Counted from the first letter of the stretch, positions 23,859-55,103 are shown. The stretch is DNA of 64,000 bases from Alphaproteobacteria bacterium (GCA_009783855.1 WRCO01000002.1:25038-89037); one strand, 5' to 3'. Notes: generated from the letters alone by a model not told the origin. Program-made: numbers and translations.

Positions 23859-23861
23859 AAC

Positions 23862-29971: not shown

Positions 29972-30066
29972 AGAGCATAGGGCACAGATAAGTGTTGAAA
30001 TTAAAAAGATATTTTACGGATATTAAAAAAGCATCTATGCTCTATGCTCTATGCTCTATGCTCTTG
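29972..30066 (+). promoter_or_regulatory. conserved 5' cassette E1 plus (CTATGCT)x4 heptamer tract preceding the bamB-like gene
   Basis: cacagataagtgttgaaattaaaaagatattttacggatattaaaaaagcatct followed by atgctctatgctctatgctctatgctc. Near-identical copies are at 38930-39003 and 53440-53530; a diverged copy is at 40925-41040. Confidence 0.7.
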
Positions 30067-32708: not shown

Positions 32709-32744
32709 AATAACAGTTGTTAGCTGTTAGTTGTTAGTTTTTAA
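32709..32744. repeat. family B repeat at the 3' flank of the T4CP gene
   Basis: cagttgttagctgttagttgttagttttt. Confidence 0.65.
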
Positions 32745-34980
32745 CTTCCCTTGTCTCCCCCGTCCCGTAATCGTATACTTTCGGCACGCCGGGGTACCCC
32801 ATTGTCGCGTGGTGCGACGGGACAAGAAATTCGGGCAACGCCGCCGCGCGCGGAATATCGGTAAGTTTGAACAAATCTTTTTCTTTGCCCGGCCAGACCC
32901 ACGGGACGTCCGCCTCAATCGGGCGATGCGGATAGCCCTGTAAAATCACAAGAAGTTTATCCGAATCAAGTTTCATTATGTCCATCGGACTGTAAAGCAG
33001 CGCCGCTTCTTTTTTGTCGTCTTTTACTTCGCCGGTTTTGTCGTCCGTCTTTTCTTCAATCTTTTTCTGGTATCCTATCATCCTGCTGAACTTGTCCGCA
33101 GTGTCGTAACTGTTTTGACGGAACACAAGTTTCACCGCTGTTGTCGATATTATGGTTTCGGCGGCGTCCGCACCGTATTTGTCCCGGATTTGGGCAATAT
33201 CCTGACCGATTATAAGATACGAAACCTGTTGTCCGCGGCCAAGGTCGGGCCCCTGAATCACAGCCTGCATCTTTTGCATTTTCGGCATTTCGTCCAGCAC
33301 GAACAAGACCGGCGTCGGCCCCAGTTTTTGACCGGCATGCGTATCTTCCGGCTTGTTGGTAAGAAGAAACGCCGACATAAGTTCGATGAATATCGCGCTT
33401 ATCGGATTCAATGCCTCCGCATCGACCATGTTTATGGAAAGGTAAACGGTAACCGGCTCCCACTTTCCCGTCTTTTTGTTTTTGATTCCGCGCAAATCGG
33501 AAAAATGAAAATCGGAATGCGACGTGCGGTTGCGGACGGCCGCGTTTCGGAAAATGTTAAGCCCCGACAATGCCGTCGACATAATCGACCCGCGTTCCTT
33601 GTCCGGCGTGTTTGCAAGCTGTGTAAGTTCTTGGATGGACCGGTGCGCGTATCCGTATTGGCGCGCCTCTTCGACCGCGTCGTGGAACAAATCCTTCATC
33701 GGGTCGGCCATCATCACCATCTGGTCGCCTTGTTTGCGCCTGTCTTCCAATTCTTCGGCGATTCTTATCTGGTTCGTGGTAAGCCAGTCAAGAACCATGG
33801 AAAGCGACGCCTCTTTGCCAACCCATGCGGCCGGTATATTCGCCCAGGTTCCGACGGGAACATAATTCGCGGCCGACAAAGCGCCCGTGGAAAGCATATG
33901 CCGCGCCGCCGCCGCGTTCGGGTCCCGCATCATCGCATACCGTTCGTCAAGAAGGACTCTGTCGGTCTGGTCGAATGTTCCGGAATCAAGGCGCGATTTG
34001 AAATAATCGTTCCATTTTGCGCGCTCTACCTTTGACACAATAAATTGTAAGAATCCGGTAAGCGCCGCGCGGCCCGTAGTGACCCAGTGCGGGTCGGCGG
34101 ACGACGTCGCCTTGTCCGCGACAAGCGTCGCGCAAATAGAGTCTATATAAAGGTCGCGTTTTTCTTGAACAAACGGCACGTGTTCGGGCGACAACGGATT
34201 CCACGACGGATAATATATGCCGCGTTCCGGGTCGTCTTGACCCGCCCAGTTTATGATGAACACCGGACCGATGCCCGCGCGGTACCCGCTTGTCAAAGCG
34301 TCCAATTCAGGTTTGGGGTCGTTGACAATCATGGACACCTTATCGCATTTGAATATGGTCGGCATAACTATGCCGCGGGATTTACCGGACCCCGGCGGCG
34401 CGACGCAAAGCGCGGACAATGTTTCGTCCAGCATAAGGAATTTCTTTTTGAATTTGCCAAGGACGATTATAAAACCGCCGAACAGGCCTTCTTTGTTCTT
34501 TTTGTCGCGGCCCATGCCCTTTACATCATTTTCGTTCGCCTTGCGGGAAGAATCGTCCGCCCACCAGTTCGTGCCATGCGGATTAAATTCGCCAAGGAAC
34601 GTCGGAATCGTAAGCAAATGATACGCGATTATTGCAAACAAGGGCGTAATAACCGGTAAATCGGGGCGAAGGACCGCGCGGACAAGCCATGCCGGAATCT
34701 CTGCAAAAATGCGCAGACCGAACGTATGCAGAATCTGGTCGAAATAAACATGAAGCCACGTGATTGTCGCCGGGCTCCACCCGTACCGCCATATATGCTC
34801 GATTGCAAAGGAAAGTCCGAACGCGGCGATGGATGCAAACCAGGCAAGGAAAAGATAACGGTATTTCCAGAACACAAGGCGCATGTGCGTCCGTTTGTCG
34901 CCCTTGTACGCGTCGGACGAAAAGATGCCAAGGCCCTTGCCTTTACCGCTTACAGATAAGATGTTGAACTTTGCAACCAT
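32734..34980 (-). CDS. type IV secretion coupling protein (VirD4/TraG/TrwB family ATPase), orphan
   Basis: 748 aa. N-terminal TM pair. Walker A LCVAPPGSGKSRGIVMPT (compare VirD4/TraG xAPTRSGKGVGxVIPN). Walker B PVLFVLDEMPKM. No other T4SS genes are adjacent. Confidence 0.6.
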   Translation of the reverse strand: MVAKFNILSVSGKGKGLGIFSSDAYKGDKRTHMRLVFWKYRYLFLAWFASIAAFGLSFAIEHIWRYGWSPATITWLHVYFDQILHTFGLRIFAEIPAWLVRAVLRPDLPVITPLFAIIAYHLLTIPTFLGEFNPHGTNWWADDSSRKANENDVKGMGRDKKNKEGLFGGFIIVLGKFKKKFLMLDETLSALCVAPPGSGKSRGIVMPTIFKCDKVSMIVNDPKPELDALTSGYRAGIGPVFIINWAGQDDPERGIYYPSWNPLSPEHVPFVQEKRDLYIDSICATLVADKATSSADPHWVTTGRAALTGFLQFIVSKVERAKWNDYFKSRLDSGTFDQTDRVLLDERYAMMRDPNAAAARHMLSTGALSAANYVPVGTWANIPAAWVGKEASLSMVLDWLTTNQIRIAEELEDRRKQGDQMVMMADPMKDLFHDAVEEARQYGYAHRSIQELTQLANTPDKERGSIMSTALSGLNIFRNAAVRNRTSHSDFHFSDLRGIKNKKTGKWEPVTVYLSINMVDAEALNPISAIFIELMSAFLLTNKPEDTHAGQKLGPTPVLFVLDEMPKMQKMQAVIQGPDLGRGQQVSYLIIGQDIAQIRDKYGADAAETIISTTAVKLVFRQNSYDTADKFSRMIGYQKKIEEKTDDKTGEVKDDKKEAALLYSPMDIMKLDSDKLLVILQGYPHRPIEADVPWVWPGKEKDLFKLTDIPRAAALPEFLVPSHHATMGYPGVPKVYDYGTGETREVKN

Positions 34981-38923: not shown

Positions 38924-38929
38924 AAATAG

Positions 38930-39003
38930 AGCAAAGACAATAGAGCGCAGATAAATGTTGAGATTAAAAAGATATTTTACGGATATTAAAAAAGCATCTA
39001 TGC
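38930..39003 (+). promoter_or_regulatory. conserved 5' cassette E2 (no heptamer expansion)
   Basis: cgcagataaatgttgagattaaaaagatattttacggatattaaaaaagcatctatgct. Confidence 0.7.
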
Positions 39004-40307
39004 TTTTGCCTGTGCGAACGCGTTCTCGCAGCGAGCGCGGCGCGACGCTTGTCGAACTTCTTCTTGCGCTGGCGGTGGCGGCGGCCATGCTTCCATTTAT
39101 AATAAGACAGGCCGACGTGCGGACCCGCCGCGCGGAAAATATAAAAGCCGCCGCCGACCTTGGCAAAGTCAAATCCGCGCTTGAAAGATATATGGAAGCG
39201 AACAGGCACGAGCTTTTCTCGACCATAAGCCGGAACGTCGTGCGCGTATCGATTTCCGATTTGGAAGAACACGGGCTTGATACCGCCAATCTTGACAAGT
39301 CGGAACAGTTCCAGATGCGCGTCGTTAAAAGCGCGGACCGGGGCGGGCGGTCGTTTCTTCAGGGCGTCGTCATCATGGACACGGAAGGCATCGCGCCGAT
39401 AAGGACGCGCGAAATCGCGGCAATCGCCGGCGGCGGCGCGGGATTCGCCGACGATAACATAACATACGGCGCATTCGGAACATGGCGCGTAAGCGCGAAC
39501 GTATGGAACGCGCGGTTTACCGACAGGTCGCTTCTTGAAGTCACGGATGCCATACGGTCGGGCGAAGAATTCCTGCGCCGCATAGTGTACGAAGACGGCG
39601 GCGCGATGATGCATTCGCCGCTTGCCCTTGGCGGGCACGACATAGTCAACGCGCGGTCGGTGTTCGCGGAATCCGCGCGCTTTGCCGAATTCGTGAATTT
39701 TACGAACGCATCGGCAAGCCGCCTTGTCATGGAAGGCAAACCGACACTTGACGGCAATGTGACCATATCCGGAGAATCAACGGTTTCGGGCGTGCTGAGT
39801 TCCGATTCACGAAGCATGGAAGTCGGCCGCATGACGGTATCCGGCACTTCGCGGTTCGGCACGGTTAATGCAAACGAATTATGGGCGGGCGATTTGGAGC
39901 TTGCCGGATTTTCGGTCCAAATTGACGAGCGTCGCCCCGCCACGCTGTCGGTCGGCCGGTCGATTGACATGACCGGCGGACGCGTTGTCTCCATGCTTGT
40001 CGCGGTGGGACACGGGGGAAGCACTACGCCGCGGCTTTTCGTAAAAGACCGGGTTGAAGACGCAAGAAATCCCGAATATTTTTGGGATGTCGCGACGGGT
40101 GAAGCCATGCTTTCCGACATATTTATCCCCGCGCTTTCCAATATGGCGCGGACCGCCATAGGCCGCGAACAGCCGGGAACGGAATCTCATCGCATCCTGT
40201 CCCAGGTTGCGAACAACGCCAACGCGACGGTCGCGGATTATATGCGCGCGCTTGCCGAAATAGAACGCCGCGTCACGGCAAGGTTTGATGCGTTGAATTT
40301 GGAATAA
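38955..40307 (+). CDS. TadE/G-like pseudopilin-family protein 3 (SERG|ATLVELLLALAVAAAMLPF)
   Basis: Class III signal with Glu at +5. Beta-helix-like repeats (GNVTISGESTVSGVLSS...MTVSGTSRFGTV). The probable true start is the ATG at 39000 (MLLPVRTRSRSERG leader). Confidence 0.45.
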   Translation: MLRLKRYFTDIKKASMLLPVRTRSRSERGATLVELLLALAVAAAMLPFIIRQADVRTRRAENIKAAADLGKVKSALERYMEANRHELFSTISRNVVRVSISDLEEHGLDTANLDKSEQFQMRVVKSADRGGRSFLQGVVIMDTEGIAPIRTREIAAIAGGGAGFADDNITYGAFGTWRVSANVWNARFTDRSLLEVTDAIRSGEEFLRRIVYEDGGAMMHSPLALGGHDIVNARSVFAESARFAEFVNFTNASASRLVMEGKPTLDGNVTISGESTVSGVLSSDSRSMEVGRMTVSGTSRFGTVNANELWAGDLELAGFSVQIDERRPATLSVGRSIDMTGGRVVSMLVAVGHGGSTTPRLFVKDRVEDARNPEYFWDVATGEAMLSDIFIPALSNMARTAIGREQPGTESHRILSQVANNANATVADYMRALAEIERRVTARFDALNLE

Positions 40308-40924: not shown

Positions 40925-41040
40925 CACATAGAACACAGATAATAGAACATAGATAGGAGAACGAACAAATGTTGAGATTCAAAAACAATTTTACAGGTCT
41001 TTGGAAAGCATCTGTGCTCTATGTTCTGTGCTCGATGCTC
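40925..41040 (+). promoter_or_regulatory. diverged conserved 5' cassette E3 with degenerate heptamer tract
   Basis: acagataatagaacatagataggagaacgaacaaatgttgagattcaaaaacaattttacaggtctttggaaagcatctgtgctctatgttctgtgctcgatgctc. Confidence 0.55.
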
Positions 41041-42605: not shown

Positions 42606-45488
42606 ATGCGCTCATATTCCAAACCATTTTTTGTCTTTGCATTTTTTGCAATCGGGCTTGTCATATCCGCCGATGCCGCGCCAAGGGTGTCAAGCGTAAG
42701 GCCGGGCGTCACTGTCCAGTCTGCAAGGTCGCGCATATCCACCGCCGGTCTGCAGATTCAGGCGCCTATACCGGTGGTGCCGGCGCTTCCCGTATTCGAC
42801 GGAACGTGCGCGAATCCCGCGCCGGAACAATTGGACGCGCTTCGCTGCACCCAACGGTATTTCGCATGTCTTCGCCGCGATATGGTATGCGGGGAGCATT
42901 TCGAACTCTGCGACACTATCGCCCGGTTTAATCAACGGCGCATGTTTTGCCAGGATGAGCTTGCGCGTTGTCCCGCGACCGTCATCGCCGAACTTTTCGG
43001 CAATCCGATAACACAGACGGTCGACGCGGAAAACATGGCGATGTGCGACGGCCAATGGACGGTGGTCCGCCGCGATTTCACGCCCGGCCTTCACGATATT
43101 CAATTGGCGTTTAACGCAAGCCTTGGGCCCAATCAGCTTTCCGGAATCGGCCGCGAAATATGGGCCGGCGCCGAATGGGCGGCCGCCAATACTTTGAGGG
43201 TTTGCGAATCCGTCGCGAACGCATGCCTTACCCGCGCGTGCCGGAATGAACCGCACAAGTGTTTGGGACGGCAATTCCTGTTGCCACAGGTCGCGGATAT
43301 CGCGGGCCTGGCCAGCGATGAAACGGAAAGAACCCACGCCGGAATCGCGACCGAGCGCGCCCGGTTTGTGGTGCCGCCGACATTGGTGCGGAATTATGCC
43401 GAAAACATGCTTTGGGAAGATGCGAACGTGATGCAGTATCTTCGCGCGGAATGCGGGTCTGAAATCGGAACGAACGAACATTGTTTCCGCCTTGCCAATC
43501 CTAATTCAAGATTTGGGTCATCGGACCAGTTTGAGGCAAACCTTGCATTTGATACGGTAATGACGGGTGAAATAAACCGCCGCGCATGGGTACAGGCGCG
43601 AAGCATAGAATGGCTTGCCGCCGCGGTCGCCGAAGTGGTGACGTCGTGCGAATTGGCGATTGAAGATTGCGTAAAGAATACATGCGGGTTCGGTTCGATG
43701 GCTTCGTGTTACGGCCGCGCGCGCAACCGGGACGGGTTGGTCAACCTTGCCGCAGGCACGGTAAACGATGAAATCGCAAGAATATGCAGACCGCAGATTG
43801 CCGAGAATCAGCATTGCCGCGACCTTCGCCCCGCGGGCGAAAGCGCGACCGCGGTATGGACGCATTTCTGGGGCGCGGGGGCGGAATCGACGCGCCTTTC
43901 CGCACGCCTTTCGTCGCAATTGCAGAACGCGTTTTCTGAAACGGGCAAGGCGAATATGCGCCGCGCGTGCCAGACCGCCGCAACCGCGTGCGTGCGTCAG
44001 GAATGCGGAAACGATTTCACAAGATGCCTTGTCCGCGGCGCGGACGACGACACGGGCCGCCGGGAATTCAACAACGACGGCCGGCCGATAATTGCCGGAG
44101 CCCAGGCGGGCGGATTTTCGCAAGACATGGCGCGCGGGCTTTGCATGCTTACCGTAAAGGAAATACGGGCGTGCAACGATTGGTTCGATATACAGTTTGC
44201 GGAAAGCGCGATGACCGAAAGCGGTCAATGGGGCGCGCTTGATTCATGGACCGCGGGCCGCGATGCGCGGAACGCATGGGGGGGCGATAACAGAACCCAT
44301 GTATGCGTGCTTGAACGCATGCCGATGATAGAAGCGGAAGTGCAAGCAATCGGCGATATGAGGATGTTCAGAAACCTTGGCGTTGCAGCGCGGCGGGCCG
44401 ATGTTTCCGAAAACGACTTTGGATGCGCGATGCAGGGGCGCCGGATATTCGACGAACTTATCGCGGACATCGCGGCCGAGGCACAGCAAAGACTGATAGT
44501 CGCCGCGAACGAAGCAAAGAACCAATGCCTTGACAGAAACCGCGTGCGCGGGTTACAGGATAATTTCGTATGGGCGAATGTAAGCGACCTTCGCGACAGA
44601 TTCAACCCGGTACAGGGAATCCTTGTCCAGGATATAAGGCCGACGGCGGATATTTGGGATGGATTCTGTGCGGTGCGGATTACGATGAATTCGGACGATA
44701 CGATATTGAACAATCATTTGAGCGGCGTCATGGCGTCAAGGAATGTAAGATACTTTTCGGTGGGCGATGCCGCAGTCTGCGGAAGCTGGATGTCGCAAAG
44801 CGACCTTGAAAGTCTTGAAGACGCGGTGCGTGCCGCAAACCCGCAAAGCAGGGTGCAAAAGGGTACGTCCGGTCGATGGATGGGCGCGATTACGGGCATA
44901 CTTGGCGGCGGTGCCGGCGGTATAGCGGTTGGCAATATGATAGGTAATGCGGGGGCTAGAGACAACTGTACCACCAGAGGAGGCACATCTGCTTGTAATA
45001 TGTGTGGTCATCAAATAAGAGGTACTGATGCGGGTGACGTGGATGACAGAGTTTGGTATACATGCGATATTTCCATAATTGGAAACGAAGTTGTGGTGAG
45101 TAATCGCGAAACTTCACGGGAACCACCAGTGTCCGAAGGGGGCGGCGGACGTATTGGCGATACCTTTATAGCCAGCACCTTACGCGGTTGCAATGACGCG
45201 GTAGATAATCTTTTGAATCAGTGCAACGCAGGCAACCGCAACAGGACGATGCAGCTTGGGCGACATGGAATAACGGGTGGCCTTGTTGGCGCGGCGGGTC
45301 TTGGCGCCGTCGGACTTATCGCCGGAAACCAGATAGACGTGGCAAGACAAAGAACGGCCCAAGAAGAAGAACGCCTTAAACAAGATGCCGCCGTTGCCGA
45401 ATGGTTCAATACAATCGGTTCAAGAATCAATTGCTTCATCGACGGCAGACAGGTCGGAAGATTCGGAGATCCGATAGAGATAAGGTAA
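42606..45488 (+). CDS. large secreted Cys-repeat protein (960 aa) with C-terminal glycine-zipper segment
   Basis: Signal peptide FVFAFFAIGLVISADA. About 45 Cys in recurring AxxCxxxxCxxxxxxC units. C-terminal GITGGLVGAAGLGAVGLIAG. A terminator follows. Confidence 0.45.
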   Translation: MRSYSKPFFVFAFFAIGLVISADAAPRVSSVRPGVTVQSARSRISTAGLQIQAPIPVVPALPVFDGTCANPAPEQLDALRCTQRYFACLRRDMVCGEHFELCDTIARFNQRRMFCQDELARCPATVIAELFGNPITQTVDAENMAMCDGQWTVVRRDFTPGLHDIQLAFNASLGPNQLSGIGREIWAGAEWAAANTLRVCESVANACLTRACRNEPHKCLGRQFLLPQVADIAGLASDETERTHAGIATERARFVVPPTLVRNYAENMLWEDANVMQYLRAECGSEIGTNEHCFRLANPNSRFGSSDQFEANLAFDTVMTGEINRRAWVQARSIEWLAAAVAEVVTSCELAIEDCVKNTCGFGSMASCYGRARNRDGLVNLAAGTVNDEIARICRPQIAENQHCRDLRPAGESATAVWTHFWGAGAESTRLSARLSSQLQNAFSETGKANMRRACQTAATACVRQECGNDFTRCLVRGADDDTGRREFNNDGRPIIAGAQAGGFSQDMARGLCMLTVKEIRACNDWFDIQFAESAMTESGQWGALDSWTAGRDARNAWGGDNRTHVCVLERMPMIEAEVQAIGDMRMFRNLGVAARRADVSENDFGCAMQGRRIFDELIADIAAEAQQRLIVAANEAKNQCLDRNRVRGLQDNFVWANVSDLRDRFNPVQGILVQDIRPTADIWDGFCAVRITMNSDDTILNNHLSGVMASRNVRYFSVGDAAVCGSWMSQSDLESLEDAVRAANPQSRVQKGTSGRWMGAITGILGGGAGGIAVGNMIGNAGARDNCTTRGGTSACNMCGHQIRGTDAGDVDDRVWYTCDISIIGNEVVVSNRETSREPPVSEGGGGRIGDTFIASTLRGCNDAVDNLLNQCNAGNRNRTMQLGRHGITGGLVGAAGLGAVGLIAGNQIDVARQRTAQEEERLKQDAAVAEWFNTIGSRINCFIDGRQVGRFGDPIEIR

Positions 45489-47254: not shown

Positions 47255-47797
47255 TTAATACCCGCCGATACAGCCAAGATATGAATTGCCCGTGCCCTCG
47301 ACAAGTGATATGAATTTCTTTTTATTCCGACCGGAAAAAAGTCCCAAAATAGTCCCCGCATCCGTCGCAAGCATATCAAGCGACAACGCAACGCCCGTAT
47401 TCATCTTTTTGAAAAACGAACTTGACGGATGGATTTCGGCCGTAAATAAACGTGAGCCGTCGCGCTTGTGCGCGCCGAGGCTTTGGGCGCGGGATGATTT
47501 TCCTATGACCATTAAATGACAATCCGCGGAAAGGATGATTTTGCCCGTGACTTTTACGTCTTCGTTGCCAAGAAGGCCGCCCCACCAGCCGACGGAATCC
47601 ACAAACACTGGGATATAAAGTTCCGCATCGGGGTTTGTTGCGAAAAAATCCGAAATATCCGGCTCTGTATGAATGACGCGCGGCATCTGGCCGGTCGCTG
47701 CGAAAATCTCTTTGCGCGCGGCGGCATAGAGCGAATCGCCCCGTGTACGCTTCGTGCCGTAAAAAAGTACCGGGTATGCAGTCGATTCGGGCTTCAT
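47255..47797 (-). CDS. hypothetical protein (180 aa)
   Basis: Intact ORF. No motif recognised. Confidence 0.3.
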   Translation of the reverse strand: MKPESTAYPVLFYGTKRTRGDSLYAAARKEIFAATGQMPRVIHTEPDISDFFATNPDAELYIPVFVDSVGWWGGLLGNEDVKVTGKIILSADCHLMVIGKSSRAQSLGAHKRDGSRLFTAEIHPSSSFFKKMNTGVALSLDMLATDAGTILGLFSGRNKKKFISLVEGTGNSYLGCIGGY

Positions 47798-48040: not shown

Positions 48041-49366
48041 TCACTTCTGAAGGCCCGCGTATGTTTTTTTGACGCCGCTCCAAAGGCCTTTGCCCTGCTC
48101 CTTTGCCTTGTTATAATATTCTTCGGGCACCTTTATACCCTTGAACAGGTTGTTTATTATCGCCGGAATCGACGTCATGAAAAATCCGATAAACAAACCC
48201 GCCATGATTATTGTAACCAGGCTTGTATTCTGAAGCGTAAGACCGTCCATAAGATACCGCGAATCATTGTTCTCCAACGCCGTTTGCAGCAAATCCGAAC
48301 CCTGGAACTCTCCGAACATCGCATTCAAAAACATCACCGCAAACACGACAAGGACGGCGACCGCAACAATGCCAACCGTATTCTTGACAAGGTCGTCTAT
48401 CATACCCTTAATCTTTTCGCCTTTGGCGCCCGGCATGACTTTCCAATCGCTGAACACCCAGCCCAAAAGAAACAGCGGAAGCATTATCAAATCCAACGAA
48501 ATCCGCATAATCGTTTCAAGAAAATACATCGGAATCGGAAGCAGCGCCATAAAAAACAAAAATATGATTATCGCACCCGCCGCAATAAGACCCATGTTCG
48601 GAAATATCGGTATATCCCACAAAAATGTGTGCATATAACGCACATCGAACGCAGAATTAAGCAGTGTCCAGCCGACAGTCATGCCAAGCCCCGTCATCTT
48701 GTGAATCCCGCCCAATTGACAGGTCAGATTATGCCGAAGCCTTGGCGAAAATATCCCGTCCGGCGAACCTGTGCTGCCTTCGGCGATTGCGGTTGCGATG
48801 ATGCAGGCTTCGAACGCATGCCTGTTTCCTTCGTCGGCAAACCTGTCCGCCGCGCCGCGGCCAAGCGACAGGCCGGTGTTGAATACAGGCTCTATCAGCG
48901 CGCCGCCGATAATCTTTGGAAGCGGCGCCAAAAGCAGCGCGCTGACAAATATAAGCTTTACAAGCAGAATACCGAATTTCTCGGCAAGCGTCCACGCGCC
49001 GCCTTCTTTTTTCATATCAACCTCGGCGCCTTTTGCGCCTATCCAGCTTGAAATGACGGTCCATGCGACCCAAACCGCCGCAAGCCCAAGCGATATCGGA
49101 ATCACGGCAAGCCCGACAGCCCTGTATATCCTTGGCACAAAGTCGGAAAGCGACGCGACAACGCCGCCGAACATGCCGCATGTCCAACAGCTTGAAAAGA
49201 ATGTAAGCGCGCCCGACATATCAACCGGCGCAAAAGACCTGTATATCGAAAATCCGATGATGCCGCCCCCAGCGGCGATGCCGCCGATGGCAAGCATCGA
49301 AATCGCCGACGCCGATAACGGAAACAGCGCAAGAAATGCGGGAAAAAGTTTTTTTAATTTATCCAC
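48041..49366 (-). CDS. polytopic membrane protein, paralog P1 of a 5-gene family (signal peptide; CWTCGMF motif)
   Basis: 441 aa, at least 8 TM. SSCWTCGMFGG. C-terminal tail KKTYAGLQK is shared with P2 and P5. Divergent from P2. Confidence 0.4.
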   Translation of the reverse strand: MDKLKKLFPAFLALFPLSASAISMLAIGGIAAGGGIIGFSIYRSFAPVDMSGALTFFSSCWTCGMFGGVVASLSDFVPRIYRAVGLAVIPISLGLAAVWVAWTVISSWIGAKGAEVDMKKEGGAWTLAEKFGILLVKLIFVSALLLAPLPKIIGGALIEPVFNTGLSLGRGAADRFADEGNRHAFEACIIATAIAEGSTGSPDGIFSPRLRHNLTCQLGGIHKMTGLGMTVGWTLLNSAFDVRYMHTFLWDIPIFPNMGLIAAGAIIIFLFFMALLPIPMYFLETIMRISLDLIMLPLFLLGWVFSDWKVMPGAKGEKIKGMIDDLVKNTVGIVAVAVLVVFAVMFLNAMFGEFQGSDLLQTALENNDSRYLMDGLTLQNTSLVTIIMAGLFIGFFMTSIPAIINNLFKGIKVPEEYYNKAKEQGKGLWSGVKKTYAGLQK

Positions 49367-49413
49367 AAATCCCCCGGAATTTGCTTTGCATTATACCATA
49401 AATCTTTCCTATA

Positions 49414-50718
49414 ATGGCGAAGATTATGAGAGGGTTCTTTCTTTTTGCCGGCTTGCTTTTGCTGCCGCTGCCTCTGGCGGCCGCAGGAATCGTCGACGCG
49501 CTTTCGCTTGCGGGGTTTGTCCCGCTTGTCCTTGACGCGATGATGACCGTCGCCATGACCGGATACGAATTTTTTGTCGGCGACGGATTCGGCATCATAT
49601 ATATTCTTGTCTGGGGCTGGCTTGGCATTACTGTCGGTCTTTATCTTGTCCGGATGTATCTTCCTTCGAAATGGCTTGGCATGTTCGGCGTTCAGGGCGA
49701 CGACAGGCTTGCCAAAGGCGAGCTTTCCGGAATGCAAATCGGCGAAGATTTGTTAAAGCCCGGCATACGCGCAATCTTCGCGGTCTTGGTTCTTTTGCAA
49801 GTCCGGCCGCAGTATATAACAACCTTTATCGTGGACCCGTTCCTTCGTTTCGGCGCGATATACACCGACAGCATTTATCGCGAAGTTTCCCAAGGAAACA
49901 CAATGTTCGGCGCGCCCCCGGTCGTAAAGTGTCCGGAAGGGTTGCTTATGAACATAGAAAGGACAAGAGGATATATTTCCGAAGCCGGGTGCAACTTTCT
50001 TATCCAGCCGGTCGCGCAGATAACGCACGCCAACAACTTTATCATAAAGCGCGGATTCCGGATGTTGACCAGCGGCATCGGGGGGCTTATGACGCTTATC
50101 CCGCGCGGCGGGGAAAATTTCATGAATATCATAACGGGATTCCTGTTGATTACCACGTTCGTATCAAGCAACTTTTTCATGGCGCTTCTTGTCATCCAGG
50201 GGATATTCACGTTCGGAATGACGCTTGTGCTTTATCCTTTCAAAGTGCTTAAATACGTCGCAAAGCCGGCGGACGGCAAGGCGTGGTTCGACCCGTGGGA
50301 CGCTTTTTCCGATATTATCCCCGCGCTTCGCAATCTTGTCATCACCATGATTGCGTCCATGTTCATTATGCTTATCAATATCGCCATAGTGCGCGCGCTG
50401 TTCAATTGGAACGAAAGCATGTTCGTCGAAGTGGCGGGCGGAACCGCGACCGCCAACGTGCCGACGGCGGCGGCACAGGGCGCCATGGGATTCGGTCATC
50501 ATTCCGTGACGTGGCTTTCCGCGATATTGACGTTCTATCTTATGCTTCGCATTTTTCAGATGACGCGCGAAAAGCTTGCCGAATATACGTCCGGAACGCC
50601 GTCGACGCTGTATGACAAAGCGAAATCCGACGCGCAATCGTTCGTGGGCGGAACAAAAAAATATTCGGCCGGAACGTGGGATGCGTTCAAATGGGTGAAA
50701 AACAAGGTTGGTAAATAA
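49414..50718 (+). CDS. polytopic membrane protein, paralog P2
   Basis: 434 aa. Signal-like N-terminus. C-terminus GGTKKYSAGTWDAFKW. First gene of a translationally coupled P2-P5 operon. Confidence 0.4.
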   Translation: MAKIMRGFFLFAGLLLLPLPLAAAGIVDALSLAGFVPLVLDAMMTVAMTGYEFFVGDGFGIIYILVWGWLGITVGLYLVRMYLPSKWLGMFGVQGDDRLAKGELSGMQIGEDLLKPGIRAIFAVLVLLQVRPQYITTFIVDPFLRFGAIYTDSIYREVSQGNTMFGAPPVVKCPEGLLMNIERTRGYISEAGCNFLIQPVAQITHANNFIIKRGFRMLTSGIGGLMTLIPRGGENFMNIITGFLLITTFVSSNFFMALLVIQGIFTFGMTLVLYPFKVLKYVAKPADGKAWFDPWDAFSDIIPALRNLVITMIASMFIMLINIAIVRALFNWNESMFVEVAGGTATANVPTAAAQGAMGFGHHSVTWLSAILTFYLMLRIFQMTREKLAEYTSGTPSTLYDKAKSDAQSFVGGTKKYSAGTWDAFKWVKNKVGK

Positions 50719-50720
50719 TA

Positions 50721-51920
50721 ATGATGTGGCTTGAACCTCTTGTCGACCGTACGGCGCAGTGTTGGGGATGCGGCGTGTTTGACATGCTGTTTTCGGTCGT
50801 GTCGGTCGCCGCCGCCGGCATGTACGGCGCCATGACGACGATTGCCGTCGCGTTGCTTGCCGTGTTTATCGCGTTCTATGTCCTTTGGTCGGTGTGGCAG
50901 AACCTGTACGGCGATGCGAAAGAGCCCATATATAAAAAATATTTTCACCCGGTGCTTGTAAATTCATTAATCGTGCTTGCGCTGTTGTCTTTGGGCGTGG
51001 TGTTCCCGCGCATGATAACAACGATGACCATAGAGCCCATAGCGCGGGTGACGCTTGTCTATTCCGAAAGCATGCTTAACAAAACAACACAACAGGTCGA
51101 TTTACAGGTCCCATATACGCCAAAGGAAATGCCGGAAGACGGGTTTTACCGGCCGGAGCTTCGCGATACCATAATCAGCCTTGTCAAAACTTCCACCACA
51201 CAATTCCAGGCGATGATGACCATGGGGCTTCTTGTCGTCGACCGGTCGTTTTCATGGTCGGCCCTTAACGGAATCGGCGCGATGGTGAAACATTTCGTCA
51301 TGCTTATCATGGGGCTTACGATTGTTTGGAATTTTTTCAAGCTGTTCGTAAAATTCTGTCTGTATTTTGTCGACGTCATCATCAACCTTTCTTTGTTCGC
51401 GTTCTTCTTTCCCCTGGGCCTTGTGTTCTTTGTGCTCAAGAATTCCGAAAGCGAAGGCTGGGTGAAAAAAATCGGGGAAAACATCGCGCCCGGAATGCTT
51501 AACAAGCTTATCGGGTCCATTGTCACGCTTGCGACGGTTGTCATCACGTACACCGTCATCCTTGTGCTTATGGCGCGGTTCTTTTCGGGTGATTCCGAAG
51601 GCGGCGCGGAGCTTGCGCGCGCGATAATGTCCAACGACCCGACCAACGATTTGTTTTCGGGTGCGATTGCCGAAGACAACCTTGCCGCGATGACTCTTGG
51701 GGGCATCGTCGTGCTTGTGTTCGTCATCCGGTTCCTTGCCGGTCAGATAGACGAAGTTGCAAAGATGATTACGCAATCGTTCAACATAGAGGTTCAAAAA
51801 CCCGAAGTCGGGGAAAAGTTGGGCGAAAGCGTGCTTGCGGTCGGCGAAAAAACCAAAGGGTTCGCGTGGGAGGAAGCAAAGCTTGGGCTTGGCATAGGAG
51901 AGGATAAAAACAAAACATAA
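50721..51920 (+). CDS. polytopic membrane protein, paralog P3 (QCWGCGVFD motif)
   Basis: 399 aa. Start 3 nt after the P2 stop. Confidence 0.4.
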   Translation: MMWLEPLVDRTAQCWGCGVFDMLFSVVSVAAAGMYGAMTTIAVALLAVFIAFYVLWSVWQNLYGDAKEPIYKKYFHPVLVNSLIVLALLSLGVVFPRMITTMTIEPIARVTLVYSESMLNKTTQQVDLQVPYTPKEMPEDGFYRPELRDTIISLVKTSTTQFQAMMTMGLLVVDRSFSWSALNGIGAMVKHFVMLIMGLTIVWNFFKLFVKFCLYFVDVIINLSLFAFFFPLGLVFFVLKNSESEGWVKKIGENIAPGMLNKLIGSIVTLATVVITYTVILVLMARFFSGDSEGGAELARAIMSNDPTNDLFSGAIAEDNLAAMTLGGIVVLVFVIRFLAGQIDEVAKMITQSFNIEVQKPEVGEKLGESVLAVGEKTKGFAWEEAKLGLGIGEDKNKT

Positions 51921-53434
51921 TGTGGAAAGCGGCGCTTATCTTTACCGCCATAAGGCTGATTATCGGAATCGCGGTTATCGGCGTCGCTGTTTCGTATATG
52001 TCGCGGTCCATAGACGGCGTGGTTGTGTCGTACGTAAGCCTTGATTCGTTTCTTCGCGCCATCGGTGCGTGCGACGCGTATGGCAATTGCGACATCGCGT
52101 ATACAAGCGGGTGTTTCCTTTGCAAATATGTCGAACAATTGTTCTTTATAATCGGTGACGCGGCGTATGCCTTTTGGGATGCGTTAATCGGGAATATATG
52201 GATTCTGATGTCGGTTGGGTTTGTGATATTCCTGTTCCATCACAGTTATAAACACATAAGGGATGCGAACGCCGCGGCCGCGACACAGCATGCCCAGGAA
52301 AAGAAATTTGATTTCAAGGCGTGGTTCGACCCGGTTTGGAAATTGGGCGTGCGGGTGTTTGTTGTCGGCGCGCTTCTTGGCGTTGTGGGATACGGCGGCG
52401 CGCCGGTGGTAAAAACGGTCGCCGATGTAACAATAACGCCCGTGATGTTTATAGGGTCAAGCCTTGCCACCGTGGCAACGGGGATAAGCGATACCGCGGC
52501 GTGCGGAAGCGGCCGCGGCATAGAACGGGAAGGCACCGACATACTTGGGCCGGCGCTTCAACCGTTTATGTGCGTGATTGGGAATCTGAATGCGGTCGTG
52601 CTTGCCGGGGCGGCGGGCGGGTTTGCGCTTATGAATTACACCGCGCTTGGGATTGGAGGCGGGCTTTGGACATGGGTCGCGGGGCTTGGCATTGTCATTA
52701 TGTTCATGTTCATCGGGTTCAATATATTCTTCAAGATATTAAGCGTCGTGTTCCAATTGGTGTTTTTAATCATATTCCTTCCCCTGTTTATGGCGGCGTG
52801 GGCGTATGAAAAGGAATGGACGCTTATGGCGGGCTCTGTGTCCAACGCAATCGGAATGCTTGCCAAATGCGCGGTCCGGATTATTGCGATAACGCTTCAG
52901 ATTTTAATCTTTTACGGCATGGTGCAGTTTGTCGCAATCGAATTCTTTCCGGGGACGGATGAATCGCGGGCGGCGGGATATACCGTGCTGTTGCCGGCTG
53001 GAATACTTGATAACCAAGGCATGGGAGCCCAGGGACCGACAGACAGGCAAACGGCGTCGGTTATGGAAGTATTTTCAAGATGCGAAGCGGTCGGCACCGC
53101 GGACGGAGTAATGAATAAAAACGCGTTCCGCGATTGTTTCAGGGCGGAAAGGGCCAAAGTGGAGGCAATATATCCCGGAGCGTTCGATTTCATGAGGCAA
53201 GGCTGGTCGTTCCTTTGGATGATGATAGGATTGATATTCGTTTATTTCTTTGCCGTGATGAAAAAGGTTGAAGATATGCTGCTTGGCGGGAAAGACAATA
53301 CCGGCGATGATTTATTCGGGTCCGGCGGCGGAACTCCGTTTGAATACGGAAGCCATGTCCGGCAATTCGGTATGAGCATATGGGGCGTGCAAAAGGGAAT
53401 AGTTAACAAGATAGAGGGAATATTCAAACCTTGA
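51920..53434 (+). CDS. polytopic membrane protein, paralog P4 (GCFLCKYV motif)
   Basis: 504 aa. TAATG overlap with P3. Confidence 0.4.
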   Translation: MWKAALIFTAIRLIIGIAVIGVAVSYMSRSIDGVVVSYVSLDSFLRAIGACDAYGNCDIAYTSGCFLCKYVEQLFFIIGDAAYAFWDALIGNIWILMSVGFVIFLFHHSYKHIRDANAAAATQHAQEKKFDFKAWFDPVWKLGVRVFVVGALLGVVGYGGAPVVKTVADVTITPVMFIGSSLATVATGISDTAACGSGRGIEREGTDILGPALQPFMCVIGNLNAVVLAGAAGGFALMNYTALGIGGGLWTWVAGLGIVIMFMFIGFNIFFKILSVVFQLVFLIIFLPLFMAAWAYEKEWTLMAGSVSNAIGMLAKCAVRIIAITLQILIFYGMVQFVAIEFFPGTDESRAAGYTVLLPAGILDNQGMGAQGPTDRQTASVMEVFSRCEAVGTADGVMNKNAFRDCFRAERAKVEAIYPGAFDFMRQGWSFLWMMIGLIFVYFFAVMKKVEDMLLGGKDNTGDDLFGSGGGTPFEYGSHVRQFGMSIWGVQKGIVNKIEGIFKP

Positions 53435-53439
53435 TAGAA

Positions 53440-53530
53440 CATGGATGGAGCACAGATAAGTGTCGAGATTAAAAAGATATTTTACGGATATTAAAAAAGC
53501 ATCTATGCTCTGTGCTCTGTGCTCTGTGCT
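53440..53530 (+). promoter_or_regulatory. conserved 5' cassette E4 plus (CTGTGCT)x4 heptamer tract
   Basis: cacagataagtgtcgagattaaaaagatattttacggatattaaaaaagcatctatgctctgtgctctgtgctctgtgctc. Confidence 0.7.
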
Positions 53531-54932
53531 CTTTTGCGGCTTTGCCGCAGATGCCGCGCCGGTAAGCAATATTCCGGGCGCCATTGCCGAATACGGCCAT
53601 TGGAATACAGATGAAACCCTTCGCCCCATGGTCGACGGAATCCGCAGTGATATAGCCGCGTTCGAAGCCGGGTTCGCAGAACAAGTATTTACCCAAGGTG
53701 ACCAGTTCGTGCCGCCCGAGGCGAAAATCGGACTTGCCATGATTAACGCGTTCACGATGGTCGCGCAATCAATCGACCGGACGCTTGGAAGTTTTGTCAT
53801 CGCGCTTCTTGTCGTTCTGTTCGCGTTCTGGGTGATGATGGAAACGTACCAGGTTATGAAGACCGGCGGCAATATAAGAGAACTTGCAATGAAAATCGTG
53901 CGCAAGGGTTTGTGGATTGCCGTATGGATTATCATACTGGCGTTCGGGCCCGCGCGATTATTCATGATGGTCGCAAGCCCGGTTATACAGGCGGGTATAA
54001 TCATGTCCGACCTTATACTTGATACCATGACCGAAGTCGCGGGCCTGCATCTTCTTGACACATGCGGCGCGATAAGGGGGTATGTCGCGGAAAGGCATAC
54101 GGGCGCCGGGCTTTTCAATGCGGAAGCCACGGCAGATATGCTTTGCATCCCGACAAGGCTTTCCGGATTCTTTTACACGTGCGTCGCGGCGGGATGGAAA
54201 TGGGTGGCGGCGGGCGCCGGAAATGTCTGGGCGGCGGGAACAACCGCGGTGGCGGGCGGGGTCGGCGGCGCCCTTCTTGGCGGCGGAGTGGCCGGGACGC
54301 TTGCCGGAGCCGGCGTCGGCGCCCTGACCGGCGGCGCGATAAGCGGCGGCAACATGCTTACATTCATCATGGGCCTTATATTTATCGCCATATTCGCGCG
54401 CAATATCTGGCTTTTCGCAATCGAAGCGCTTGGTGTTGTGGCAAGTCTTTTCCTTGCCGTCATGTTCTTGCCGTTCACCGCCGTCGCGGAATGTTTCGGG
54501 GGCGGCGAGACAAGCCTTAAAGACCGGGGGATATTCACGGAATTCTTCAAAATGCTTGCCAATATGGTCGGCGGCGGAAAATTGAAATTCCGCGGCCAGC
54601 TTCAGACATTCATAAACGCCGCGATTTATTTTGTGGCCTTGTCCGTTGTGTCTGCCATCGGGCTTGCCCTTCTTGCACAGGTCATCGGACCAAGTCCCGC
54701 GGATTTTGCGGACTCCGTCCCGACGGCGGAAAACAGCACAAGTTTCATGATGGTGCTTGTCGTCGGAATGCTTGTGTCGCATCTTGCCAAAAAGGCGGGC
54801 GATATTGCAAAAGACCTTGGCGGGTCCATAGATGCCGAATTTGGGAAACGGCTTGACGCACAGGCGCAATCTTTACGCGGCTGGGCGGTAGGCAGCGCAA
54901 AGAAATGGTACGGGGTGTTTAAGGGGAAATGA
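53460..54932 (+). CDS. polytopic membrane protein, paralog P5 (cassette-type leader; Gly-rich GxxxG segment)
   Basis: 490 aa. Signal MLCALCSVLFCGFAADA. AGTTAVAGGVGGALLGGGVAGTLAGAGVGALTGG. C-terminus AKKWYGVFKGK. Confidence 0.4.
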   Translation: MSRLKRYFTDIKKASMLCALCSVLFCGFAADAAPVSNIPGAIAEYGHWNTDETLRPMVDGIRSDIAAFEAGFAEQVFTQGDQFVPPEAKIGLAMINAFTMVAQSIDRTLGSFVIALLVVLFAFWVMMETYQVMKTGGNIRELAMKIVRKGLWIAVWIIILAFGPARLFMMVASPVIQAGIIMSDLILDTMTEVAGLHLLDTCGAIRGYVAERHTGAGLFNAEATADMLCIPTRLSGFFYTCVAAGWKWVAAGAGNVWAAGTTAVAGGVGGALLGGGVAGTLAGAGVGALTGGAISGGNMLTFIMGLIFIAIFARNIWLFAIEALGVVASLFLAVMFLPFTAVAECFGGGETSLKDRGIFTEFFKMLANMVGGGKLKFRGQLQTFINAAIYFVALSVVSAIGLALLAQVIGPSPADFADSVPTAENSTSFMMVLVVGMLVSHLAKKAGDIAKDLGGSIDAEFGKRLDAQAQSLRGWAVGSAKKWYGVFKGK

Positions 54933-55103
54933 TAAGAATGTGGGGGCAGATATCATTTGCCCCGAATAATTCCAACAAATTCATAATTTATTATGTGTCG
55001 ACACCTTGTGGGGCAAATGATATTTGCCCCTATATTTAAGCGTTAACAGTTCGCTATTCGCCAAATTTATGATATAATAAATTGATACAAAAAAGGACTT
55101 ACC

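What the first reader, a model, noticed from the sequence alone, without database searches (positions are those of the whole stretch)
48041..54932. Divergent array of five paralogous polytopic membrane proteins (P1 vs P2-P5 operon)
Five adjacent ORFs of 399-504 aa each have 6-10 predicted TM helices. They share low-complexity motifs: CWTCGMF / CWGCGVF / GCFLCKYV near an early TM, and the C-terminal tails KKTYAGLQK / KKYSAGTWDAFKW / AKKWYGVFKGK. P2-P5 are translationally coupled (3-nt gap, TAATG overlap). P1 is divergent, with a 47-bp spacer containing a TATAAT. P5 carries the conserved cassette and a long GxxxG-rich segment. Tandem arrays of VirB6/TrbL-like polytopic proteins are a hallmark of Rickettsiales-type rvh type IV secretion systems, and an orphan VirD4-like coupling protein lies 13 kb away. 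However, no VirB6 signature could be verified by eye, and no virB3/virB4 is adjacent. The array may be a novel membrane complex.
Basis: partly seen in the sequence, partly recalled or inferred. Interest (0 to 1): 0.75.

Follow-up and report, generated by a model that had tools for sequence, protein, structure and literature searches.

The report
Five-paralog VirB6-like membrane protein array
Five neighbouring membrane-protein genes, annotated only as "hypothetical" in the records seen here, are ancient, very divergent copies of VirB6, the inner-membrane core of type IV secretion machines; they are kept as a fixed set in a group of tiny-genome gut bacteria (order Rs-D84), which suggests these bacteria rely on a secretion-type machine to live off partner cells.

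Summary
Five adjacent ORFs of 399-504 aa (P1 on the minus strand, P2-P5 on the plus strand) are polytopic, all-helical and genuine deep paralogues with 14-20% identity. None of the five window proteins matches TrbL/VirB6 in Pfam or NCBIfam.

- **Sequence.** A P3 profile finds only 156 relatives among 1.84 billion proteins. Of 62 distant ones, 26 hit Pfam TrbL. An HMM built from those 62 scores all five window proteins at 82-184 bits.

The block IMPase-o180-P1 | P2-P5 recurs in nearly all 80 Rs-D84 loci, and all five paralogues are present once each in 78. A sister lineage has P1-P5 in the same order on one strand, so the five-fold duplication is old and P1 was inverted.

VirD4, 13 kb away, is a core gene (61-76% identity). 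No VirB4 or VirB8-B11 was found anywhere I could look, so rvh membership is not established.

Best reading: the inner-membrane platform of a derived type IV secretion-like machine. This is a new variant of a known kind.

The parts
48041..49366 (-). P1, 441 aa. VirB6-like paralogue with a signal-like N-terminus, CWTC motif and the 'LPLFLLGWVFSDW' Pro/Trp motif. Transcribed divergently, upstream of o180 and the inositol monophosphatase gene.
   Evidence: hhalign P1-P3 98.5%, P1-P4 96%, P1-P5 95%. The outsider HMM scores it 180 bits. Single copy in 77 of 80 loci.
49367..49413 (.). 47-bp divergent intergenic spacer between P1 and P2. TATAAT at 49410-49415 overlaps the first possible P2 ATG. The spacer is 59 bp if P2 starts at 49426.
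   Evidence: NCBI product is 430 aa.
51920..53434 (+). P4, 504 aa. Paralogue with a Cys-rich periplasmic N-region that includes CFLC. Its start overlaps the P3 stop (TAATG).
   Evidence: (103 bits).
53460..54932 (+). P5, 490 aa as the maximal ORF; 475 aa from the ATG at 53505 as called elsewhere. It has a signal peptide. Residues 256-297 (nt 54225-54350) are a genome-specific Gly/Ala insertion.
   Evidence: (95 bits).
53445..53509 (+). Copy of an approximately 65-85-nt repeat in the P4-P5 gap. It supplies the 5' end and leader 'MSRLKRYFTDIKKASML' of the maximal P5 ORF. Other copies start at about 29975, 38940 and 40954.
55010..55030 (+). Terminator-like hairpin (9 bp stem followed by a T-rich tail) between P5 and mraY. 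Probable end of the P2-P5 transcript.
47255..47797 (-). o180, a 180-aa soluble protein of unknown family. Found in 74 of 80 Rs-D84 loci, immediately downstream of P1 in nearly all of them. Candidate sixth component.
   Evidence: 68% mean column identity. No Pfam, NCBIfam or PDB hit.
32734..34980 (-). VirD4-type coupling ATPase, 748 aa, solitary among housekeeping genes. It is a core gene of the clade.
   Evidence: T4SS-DNA_transf 179 bits, TraG-D_C, TrwB_AAD_bind. (orthologues 61-76% identical). (context in OZ246409.1).

Best explanation
The five ORFs are ancient paralogues of a divergent, so far unannotated branch of the TrbL/VirB6 superfamily. VirB6 is the polytopic inner-membrane subunit that forms the membrane-embedded base of the stalk in the solved R388 type IV secretion system.

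In these Rs-D84 bacteria (genomes under 1 Mb, predicted to depend on partner cells), the five proteins most likely assemble into the inner-membrane platform or channel of a strongly derived type IV secretion-like machine. That machine would be fed by the conserved VirD4 coupling ATPase encoded 13 kb away.

**Shown.** Paralogy; the VirB6-like fold of P2 and P3; a sequence bridge to TrbL; near-universal single-copy conservation of all five; an ancestral collinear order P1-P5; VirD4 as a core gene.

**Inferred.** That they act in secretion or translocation with VirD4, and that they form a mixed oligomer, with each paralogue non-redundant.
For: **Fold.**
- Foldseek of the same model: the six best hits are all TrwI chains, probability 0.77-1.00.

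**Sequence bridge.**
- The P3 profile finds 156 hits among 1.84e9 representatives.
- Of 62 distant relatives, 26 match PF04610 TrbL at E<=0.01, best 2.4e-8, and no other family recurs.
- P0430 scores E 2.6e-10 to the P3 profile and E 2.8e-4 to TrbL over the TM/loop core.
- An HMM of those 62 scores P1-P5 at 82-184 bits, and ranks VirB6 first among pTi VirB1-B11.

**Conservation.**
- All five present once each, in the layout P1(-)|P2-P5(+), in 78 of 80 species-level genomes; the other two loci are truncated records.
- Within-orthogroup identity is 49-59%, between-paralogue identity 14-20%.
- Many 1-4 nt gene overlaps.

**Age.** L085 has P1-, P2-, P3-, P4- and P5-like genes in that order on one strand.

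**VirD4.** Strong Pfam hits and 61-76% identity across the clade.

**Lifestyle.** Rs-D84 lack standard transporters and are proposed obligate symbionts or parasites (PMC12306168).

**Precedent.** Rickettsia carries five VirB6 paralogues with about 80% divergence (PMC2653234).
Against: - None of the five window proteins hits TrbL at E<=1 in Pfam or NCBIfam. Only 3 of 105 family members give sub-threshold TrbL hits, alongside spurious families such as EI24 and FAM70.
- Profiles do not detect TrwI or pTi VirB6 directly.
- No other T4SS component was found in any of these places:
  - the window;
  - 80 loci of +/-10 kb;
  - around VirD4 in a complete chromosome;
  - 10-kb extensions of the contig;
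  - beside related arrays in five other lineages.
- The neighbours are housekeeping and cell-envelope genes.
Confidence: 0.62

Rival explanations
1. These are VirB6-superfamily proteins that no longer belong to a canonical type IV secretion system. The array would form a stand-alone inner-membrane channel, for example for uptake of DNA, nucleotides or metabolites from a partner. It might work with the nearby prepilin-like proteins and ComEC, or with VirD4 alone.
For: - No VirB4 or VirB8-B11 lies near the array in any of six lineages examined.
- Rs-D84 lack nucleotide and amino-acid synthesis and standard transporters (PMC12306168).
- ComEC and three prepilin-like ORFs are in the window.
- Gillespie et al. 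speculated that multiple VirB6 copies could seed DNA-import channels (PMC2653234).
Against: - VirD4 has no known role outside T4SS, and it is a highly conserved core gene here.
- In Rickettsiales the rvh genes are also scattered in islets (PMC2653234), so absence nearby is weak evidence.
- Only a small fraction of any genome could be inspected.
Confidence: 0.22
2. This is a bona fide Rickettsiales-type rvh system. P1-P5 would be orthologues of RvhB6a-e, inherited from a common ancestor with Rickettsiales, and the other rvh islets would lie elsewhere in the genome.
For: - Five tandem, extremely divergent VirB6-type paralogues, as in Rickettsia (PMC2653234).
- 'Multicopy RvhB6' is a listed rvh hallmark (PMC11077975).
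- VirD4 is present.
- Some of these MAGs are labelled 'Rickettsiales bacterium' by NCBI.
Against: - There is no virB3-virB4 upstream of the array, and VirD4 is not in a virB8-D4 operon.
- The proteins are 399-504 aa, without the RvhB6 extensions (668-1154 aa, PMC2653234).
- None of the 20 distant relatives whose names were looked up carries a VirB6 name; all are 'hypothetical' proteins of uncultured Alphaproteobacteria or are unnamed.
- The four 'Rickettsiales bacterium' MAG accession prefixes searched (JAISCX, JAISAB, JAIRZE, JAIRLB) are not in the rvh data set of PMC11077975.
- GTDB places Rs-D84 as its own order (PMC12306168).
Confidence: 0.12
3. This is an unrelated, lineage-specific family of helical membrane proteins. 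Its resemblance to VirB6 would be generic long-helix similarity plus compositional bias in the TrbL hits.
For: - Foldseek E-values are weak (1.5e-2) and TM-scores are 0.3-0.48.
- All four individual TrbL hits with reported scores are at or below the gathering threshold (21.2, 23.2 and 19.6 bits; E 6e-4). Other membrane families also appear among the weak hits.
Against: - Two paralogues with almost no mutual sequence similarity both pick TrwI first out of 48,164 chains, each covering 96% of it. Both also pick DotA, the other solved stalk-base protein.
- TrbL is the only recurrent family in 26 of 62 relatives, best E 2.4e-8.
- The TrbL-matched segment coincides with the family's invariant Pro/Trp core.
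Confidence: 0.04

Closest known systems
RvhB6a-e, the five tandem VirB6 paralogues of the Rickettsia/Rickettsiales vir homolog (rvh) T4SS
   Same: - An array of about five adjacent VirB6-type polytopic proteins.
- About 80% divergence between paralogues, with each orthologue conserved across species.
- Retained in reduced genomes of host- or partner-dependent Alphaproteobacteria.
- VirD4 is present and the vir genes are not all clustered (PMC2653234).
   Different: - No virB3-virB4 precedes the array.
- P1 is inverted.
- The proteins are compact (399-504 aa versus 668-1154 aa).
- They have a CxxC motif.
- They are not recognised by Pfam TrbL.
- VirD4 is solitary.
- The organisms are Rs-D84, not Rickettsiales.
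- Orthology to RvhB6a-e was not tested.
TrwI/VirB6 of plasmid R388 (PDB 7o3v, 8rt9, 8rtd), the base of the VirB5-VirB6 stalk
   Different: - 9-11% identity and no direct sequence or profile hit.
- A single gene forming a homo-oligomer (five TrwI chains in 7o3v), against five distinct genes here.
- Encoded within a complete virB-type operon on a plasmid.
DotA of the Legionella Dot/Icm type IVB system (PDB 9ngy, DotA-IcmX protochannel)
   Different: DotA is much larger (857 residues modelled) and a single-copy gene that is part of a T4BSS. It scores lower than TrwI.
Unannotated VirB6-like arrays in other uncultured Alphaproteobacteria (L084-L088)
   Same: The same protein family, with HMM scores of 45-394 bits. 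The genes are tandem: five in L084, L085 and L086, four in L087 and three in L088. L085 has one-to-one P1-P5 counterparts in the same order. No adjacent VirB4.
   Different: All copies are co-directional. Many carry N-terminal extensions of about 300 aa or fusions (Peptidase_M23 in L086). GC content (30-46%) and neighbours differ. o180 is not associated.

Membership tests
TrbL/VirB6 superfamily (Pfam PF04610) | Match to the PF04610 HMM at or above the gathering score (25.9 bits). | tested here: not met
   - No TrbL hit at E<=1 for P1-P5, and none in NCBIfam.
- 3 of 105 orthologues give sub-threshold hits, best E 6e-4.
- 10 P1 orthologues give none.
TrbL/VirB6 superfamily (Pfam PF04610) | Homology demonstrable through intermediate sequences (a transitive profile link). 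| tested here: met
   - The P3 profile reaches 62 distant relatives.
- 26 of those 62 hit TrbL at E<=0.01, best 2.4e-8, and it is the only recurrent family.
- P0430, P0431 and P0456 score 19.6-23.2 bits on TrbL profile positions 82-192.
- The HMM of the relatives scores P1-P5 at 82-184 bits.
TrbL/VirB6 superfamily (Pfam PF04610) | Fold of a solved VirB6 (TrwI). | tested here: met
- The top six Foldseek hits are TrwI chains.
- Caveat: these are predicted models with pLDDT 72-77 and TM-scores of 0.30-0.48.
TrbL/VirB6 superfamily (Pfam PF04610) | Polytopic inner-membrane protein with five or more TM segments and a periplasmic N-terminus. | tested here: inconclusive
   - 6-9 hydrophobic segments by Kyte-Doolittle, and long helices in the models.
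- Signal-peptide-like N-termini in P1, P2 and P5 would put the mature N-terminus outside.
- No dedicated topology predictor was available.
TrbL/VirB6 superfamily (Pfam PF04610) | Conserved TM/cytoplasmic-loop region with the invariant, essential Trp (PMC2653234). | tested here: inconclusive
   - There is an invariant Pro, and a Trp conserved at 90% or more in the P1-P4 orthogroups, 11-16 residues later. P5 has Phe.
- A statistically insignificant hhalign alignment (probability 0.3%) appears to put P3 W247 on pTi VirB6 W197; the printed alignment is cut off at that column.
- The TrbL-matched segment of the relatives covers this region.
TrbL/VirB6 superfamily (Pfam PF04610) | Encoded with other T4SS (virB/trb) genes. 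| tested here: not met
   - Only VirD4 is present, 13 kb away.
- No VirB1-B5 or VirB7-B11 by tblastn in the window plus 80 loci.
- None by Pfam in the window and its extensions.
Rickettsiales vir homolog (rvh) T4SS | Multicopy (4-5) divergent VirB6 genes in tandem. | tested here: met
   Five paralogues with 14-20% mutual identity.
Rickettsiales vir homolog (rvh) T4SS | Islet virB3-virB4-virB6a-e, with virB3 and virB4 directly upstream of the array. | tested here: not met
   Upstream of P2 is the divergent P1. The flanks are o180/IMPase and mraY. There is no VirB3 or VirB4 within +/-10 kb in 80 genomes.
Rickettsiales vir homolog (rvh) T4SS | Duplicated VirB4, VirB8 and VirB9, and no VirB5 (PMC11077975). 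| not testable with these tools
   Whole Rs-D84 genomes could not be fetched. Only the window, +/-10-kb loci and two contig extensions were available.
Rickettsiales vir homolog (rvh) T4SS | virD4 at the end of a virB8-virB9-virB10-virB11-virD4 operon. | tested here: not met
   VirD4 is flanked by rsmE and rluB-type genes here, and by rsmE plus an unknown lipoprotein and an LpoB-like gene in OZ246409.1.
Rickettsiales vir homolog (rvh) T4SS | RvhB6 proteins carry long N- and C-terminal extensions (668-1154 aa; PMC2653234). | tested here: not met
   P1-P5 are 399-504 aa, and orthologues are similar in length. Extensions do occur in the related arrays L084, L086 and L087.

The most novel reading that the evidence does not exclude
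The five paralogues are the five non-identical protomers of a hetero-pentameric VirB6 platform. In this reading, a clade of uncultured Alphaproteobacteria (possibly Rickettsia too) replaced the homopentameric stalk base seen in R388 and Dot/Icm with one copy each of five specialised subunits. In Rs-D84 this platform, with VirD4, could be the core of a minimal or radically remodelled translocon that lacks recognisable VirB4 and VirB8-B11, used to parasitise partner cells in the gut.

**Basis.**
- Exactly one copy of each paralogue in 78 of 80 genomes, with four of them tightly packed or overlapping.
- Five-gene arrays in L084, L085 and L086 and in Rickettsia (PMC2653234).
- Five TrwI chains in 7o3v.

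**Against.** L087 has four copies, L088 has three and Anaplasmataceae have four.
Probability: 0.15. Interest if true: 0.85.

Novelty: new variant of a known kind. Interest (0 to 1): 0.55.

Why it matters
Rs-D84 ('Candidatus Enterousia' and relatives) are widespread gut bacteria of animals and termites. Their genomes are under 1 Mb, they have no standard nutrient transporters, and they are presumed to depend on partners (PMC12306168). How they interact with a partner is unknown.

Seven genes can now be tied to this question: the five co-conserved VirB6-type genes, the conserved o180 and a core VirD4. Recognising them as the visible part of a type IV secretion-like machine gives a concrete, testable candidate for that interaction.

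For T4SS biology there are three points of interest:
- It shows a whole unannotated branch of the VirB6 superfamily, with only 156 representatives detectable among 1.84 billion proteins.
- VirB6 multiplication into ordered arrays is not confined to Rickettsiales.
- Compact 400-500-aa paralogues are a tractable system for asking why some lineages keep five different VirB6 proteins when the solved machines use five copies of one.

Tried and rejected
**Searches that found nothing useful**
- Direct Pfam and NCBIfam scans of P1-P5 gave nothing relevant.
- Profile searches of PDB sequences with the P3, P2 and superfamily alignments gave only designed helical proteins, not TrwI.
- hhalign and hmmsearch of the orthogroup profiles against the single pTiC58 VirB6 sequence were not significant.
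- Ten P1 orthologues against Pfam gave no TrbL hit.
- o180 has no hit in Pfam, NCBIfam or PDB.
- Literature: no paper links Rs-D84 to type IV secretion or VirB6 pentamers to Rickettsiales. One search was wasted through a loose term setting.

**Approaches abandoned**
- Building a broad VirB6 profile from plasmids: tblastn from pTi VirB6 reaches only 276 records, nearly all Rhizobiaceae and a few Acetobacteraceae.
- The afdb50 fold library was unavailable.
- R388 could not be fetched under accession BR000038.

**Search for the rest of a T4SS, all negative**
- tblastn of pTi VirB1-B11 against the window plus 80 loci.
- Pfam over the whole window.
- The VirD4 neighbourhood in a complete chromosome.
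- 10-kb extensions at both ends of the contig.
- The supplements of the rvh survey do not list any of the four 'Rickettsiales bacterium' MAG accession prefixes searched.

**Readings rejected**
- A mobile-element or ICE remnant. Synteny is chromosomal and fixed across 80 species, GC is unremarkable and the neighbours are housekeeping genes.
- The Gly-rich segment of P5 as a family feature. It occurs in 1 of 79 orthologues.
- The divergent promoter as an ancestral design. L085 has all five genes co-directional.

Full report
**1. The observation**

| ORF | Coordinates | Strand | Length |
|---|---|---|---|
| P1 | 48041-49366 | - | 441 aa |
| P2 | 49414-50718 | + | 434 aa |
| P3 | 50721-51920 | + | 399 aa |
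| P4 | 51920-53434 | + | 504 aa |
| P5 | 53460-54932 | + | 490 aa |

- **Quoted motifs.** The Cys motifs and basic C-terminal tails are present.
- **Hydrophobic segments.** A Kyte-Doolittle scan gives 6-9 per protein.
- **Junctions.** P2/P3 has a 2-nt gap, P3/P4 is a TAATG overlap, and the P4/P5 gap of 25-70 nt holds a repeat element.
- **P1/P2 spacer.** It is 47 bp, and its TATAAT overlaps the first possible ATG of P2. Gene callers start P2 at 49426 and P5 at 53505.
- **End of the operon.** A terminator-like hairpin at 55010-55030 closes the P2-P5 unit before mraY.
- **Correction.** The 'GxxxG-rich segment' of P5 is a 42-residue Gly/Ala insertion present in only 1 of 79 orthologues.

**2. Are they paralogues?**

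Yes, but deep ones.

- Pairwise BLASTP is weak. P1-P3 scores 48 bits and the other pairs 35 bits or less.
- I obtained orthologues of all five from 80 species-level genomes and compared the profiles.
  - Collinear alignments covering most or all of the length: P1-P3 98.5%, P1-P4 96%, P1-P5 95%, P2-P5 94%, P3-P5 92.5%, P4-P5 92%, P3-P4 88%, P2-P3 68%.
  - P1-P2 scores 75%, but only over a 29-residue C-terminal stretch.
  - P2-P4 alone shows no significant match.
- Among all window ORFs of 80 aa or more, the five orthogroup HMMs hit only each other. They never hit other polytopic proteins such as MraY, FtsW, LptF/G or ComEC.
- An HMM built from 62 distant relatives outside the clade scores P3 at 184 bits, P1 at 180, P4 at 103, P5 at 95 and P2 at 82.
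- Identity is 14-20% between paralogues and 49-59% within each orthogroup.
- Shared features:
  - a CxxC just before the first core helix, in P1, P3, P4 and in at least 90% of the distant relatives;
  - an invariant Pro followed 11-16 residues later by a conserved Trp.

**3. Whose genome, and how conserved?**

- Homologues come only from uncultured Alphaproteobacteria of termite and animal guts, including 'Candidatus Enterousia'. This is GTDB order Rs-D84, with genomes under 1 Mb. These bacteria lack most biosynthesis and standard transporters and are proposed to be obligate symbionts or parasites (PMC12306168).
- The window is chromosomal and otherwise filled with housekeeping genes.
- In 78 of 80 loci all five paralogues occur once each, in the layout P1(-)|P2 P3 P4 P5(+). 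The two exceptions are truncated records. Gene overlaps of 1-4 nt are common.
- The conserved block also includes a 180-aa soluble protein of unknown family (o180, 47255-47797) and an inositol-monophosphatase gene, both downstream of P1. The mraY-ftsW-murG genes lie on either side of the block in different genomes.
- No sixth paralogue was found in the window or in the sequenced flanks.

**4. What are they?**

*Direct family searches fail.*
- No Pfam or NCBIfam hit of relevance for the five proteins.
- Nothing by profile against PDB sequences.
- Only 3 of 105 orthologues give sub-threshold TrbL hits, among other weak membrane-family noise.

*Line 1: structure.*
- Foldseek independently ranks six TrwI chains first, with probability up to 1.00. 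Its E-values (1.5e-2) and TM-scores (0.30-0.48) are weak.

*Line 2: sequence.*
- An exhaustive HMMER search of 1.84 billion representatives with the P3 profile finds only 156 proteins at E<=1e-3.
- Beyond the Rs-D84 orthologues there are about 62 distant relatives of 312-1497 aa. All 20 that were looked up are either named 'hypothetical' (from uncultured Alphaproteobacteria or 'Rickettsiales' MAGs) or carry no name.
- Twenty-six of the 62 match Pfam TrbL/VirB6 at E<=0.01 (best 2.4e-8). No other family recurs.
- One example is P0430. It scores E 2.6e-10 to the P3 profile, and TrbL at 21.2 bits against the 25.9-bit cutoff. The TrbL match covers profile positions 82-190, the segment that holds the family's Pro/Trp core.
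- The same relatives' HMM ranks VirB6 first among the eleven pTiC58 VirB proteins, though weakly.

I therefore place P1-P5 in a divergent branch of the TrbL/VirB6 superfamily. In every record I looked up its members are named 'hypothetical' or are unnamed.

**5. Evolution of the array**

| Locus | Source and GC | VirB6-like genes |
|---|---|---|
| L085 | Alphaproteobacteria MAG, GC 33% | Five co-directional genes. The first four best match the P1, P2, P3 and P4 HMMs in that order. The fifth hits only the outsider HMM and is taken as the P5 counterpart by position |
| L084 | GC 30% | Five tandem genes of 474-857 aa |
| L086 | GC 46% | Five tandem genes, the last fused to an M23 peptidase |
| L087 | not determined | Four |
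| L088 | not determined | Three |

The five-fold duplication and the order P1 to P5 therefore predate Rs-D84. The divergent orientation of P1 in Rs-D84 is a later inversion, not an ancestral regulatory design.

**6. Is there a type IV secretion system?**

- VirD4 (32734-34980) has strong Pfam support. It is better conserved across the clade (61-76% identity) than P2 and P3, the two paralogues searched the same way (41-65%). It is therefore a core gene under selection.
- I found no other component in any sequence available to me:
  - by tblastn with pTiC58 VirB1-B11 against the window plus 1.6 Mb of Rs-D84 loci;
  - by Pfam across the window;
  - around VirD4 in the complete chromosome OZ246409.1;
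  - in 10-kb extensions of both ends of the contig;
  - beside the related arrays L084-L088.
- Whole genomes could not be fetched, so this is absence nearby, not absence. In Rickettsia the rvh genes are also scattered in five islets (PMC2653234).

**7. Most likely function**

- By homology, these are inner-membrane platform or channel subunits of a T4SS-like translocon served by VirD4.
- Strict one-of-each conservation implies that the five are non-redundant. So does the tight packing of P2-P5.
- A mixed oligomer is a natural inference, because solved VirB6 (five TrwI chains in 7o3v) and DotA form the stalk or protochannel base. This is not shown, and arrays of three or four copies exist.
- Rivals:
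  - a VirB6-derived channel working without a canonical T4SS, for example uptake of DNA or metabolites. ComEC and three prepilin-like ORFs are in the window;
  - true rvh membership;
  - mere fold convergence, which I consider the least likely.

**8. Comparison with the known**

- The closest known situation is the RvhB6a-e array of Rickettsia: five copies, about 80% divergent and each conserved (PMC2653234). 'Multicopy RvhB6' is a listed rvh hallmark (PMC11077975).
- Differences from rvh:
  - no virB3-virB4 upstream;
  - VirD4 is not in a virB8-D4 operon;
  - the proteins are compact, without extensions;
  - there is a CxxC motif;
  - P1 is inverted;
  - the organisms belong to a different order.
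- I do not file the array as rvh. I file it as a new variant of the known 'VirB6 paralogue array' theme and a new branch of the VirB6 superfamily.

**9. Verdict**

- The rvh and T4SS context remains unproven.
- Interest is moderate (0.55). The known kind is recognisable, but three things are not in the literature I could search: the branch is unannotated, the array is fixed in an ecologically widespread tiny-genome clade, and there is a recurring match between five paralogues and a five-fold stalk base.

Noticed in passing
window 29975-30060, 38940-39025, 40954-41040, 53445-53530: An approximately 65-85-nt repeat in four copies. Three copies are 94-100% identical and the fourth is 71%. It sits at the 5' end of four genes for exported proteins: a BamB-like lipoprotein, prepilin-like pp3, ORF 40969 and P5. 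It encodes a shared leader 'M[LS][RK]LKRYFTDIKKASML' followed by (CTCTRTG)n-type repeats that code the hydrophobic core. This could reflect gene conversion, a shared regulatory or translation-initiation cassette, or a small mobile element.
   Followed up: partly
window 36196-40307 (+): Three consecutive ORFs (482, 434 and 450 aa) have no Pfam family. pp2 and pp3 carry class-III (prepilin) signal sequences, 'RGASLLETLL...' and 'RGATLVELLL...'. pp3 gives weak N-terminal hits to ComGE and GspG. The cluster recurs next to VirD4 in OZ246409.1 (L082), and part of it (pp2, pp3 and the two small ORFs) next to the array in one locus. It may be a giant minor-pilin set of a type IV pilus or competence system.
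   Followed up: partly
window 47255-47797 (-): o180 is a 180-aa soluble protein found immediately downstream of P1 in nearly all Rs-D84 genomes. Its mean column identity is 68%, with invariant GWWG..LLG and two invariant Cys. It matches nothing in Pfam, NCBIfam or PDB sequences.
   Followed up: partly
window 42606-45488 (+): A 960-aa secreted, Cys-rich protein with no family, conserved in Rs-D84 (1011 aa in L082). It lies between the prepilin-like cluster and the array.
   Followed up: no
window 54225-54350 (P5 residues 256-297): A 42-residue Gly/Ala-rich insertion (65% G+A in a 40-aa window) present in this genome only, among 79 P5 orthologues. It sits in a loop of the protein.
   Followed up: yes
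window 32734-34980 (-); L082, L083: VirD4 is solitary, next to rsmE and rluB-type genes. It is 61-76% identical across Rs-D84, more conserved than the VirB6-like proteins compared the same way. In OZ246409.1 it is followed by a 422-aa unknown lipoprotein plus an LpoB-like gene. In this window the same pair sits at 22572-24467.
   Followed up: partly
L084 (Logan SRR28370466), L085 (JAERRO010000013.1), L086 (JGI 3300010163), L087 (SAAU01000002.1), L088 (ENA ERZ28018883): Other uncultured lineages carry tandem arrays of three to five proteins of the same family, without Pfam-level annotation apart from weak TrbL hits on two L086 genes. Some have N-terminal extensions of about 300 aa. One is fused to Peptidase_M23 (1497 aa). 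L086 and L088 have an HTH_3 regulator right after the array. L084 has an 86-aa two-TM ORF just upstream.
   Followed up: partly
A4 members (orthologues of P1-P5): Pfam gave recurrent sub-threshold hits to unrelated membrane families: FAM70 in 10 members, and EI24/CysZ in 5 members with best E 7e-7. These are probably compositional. It is a warning that single weak hits on these proteins are unreliable.
   Followed up: no
window 62926-63993 (-) and L090 10903-13014: A full-length ComEC (703 aa, DUF4131 plus Competence domains) lies 8 kb downstream of the array. It fits DNA uptake in an organism that cannot make nucleotides.
   Followed up: no
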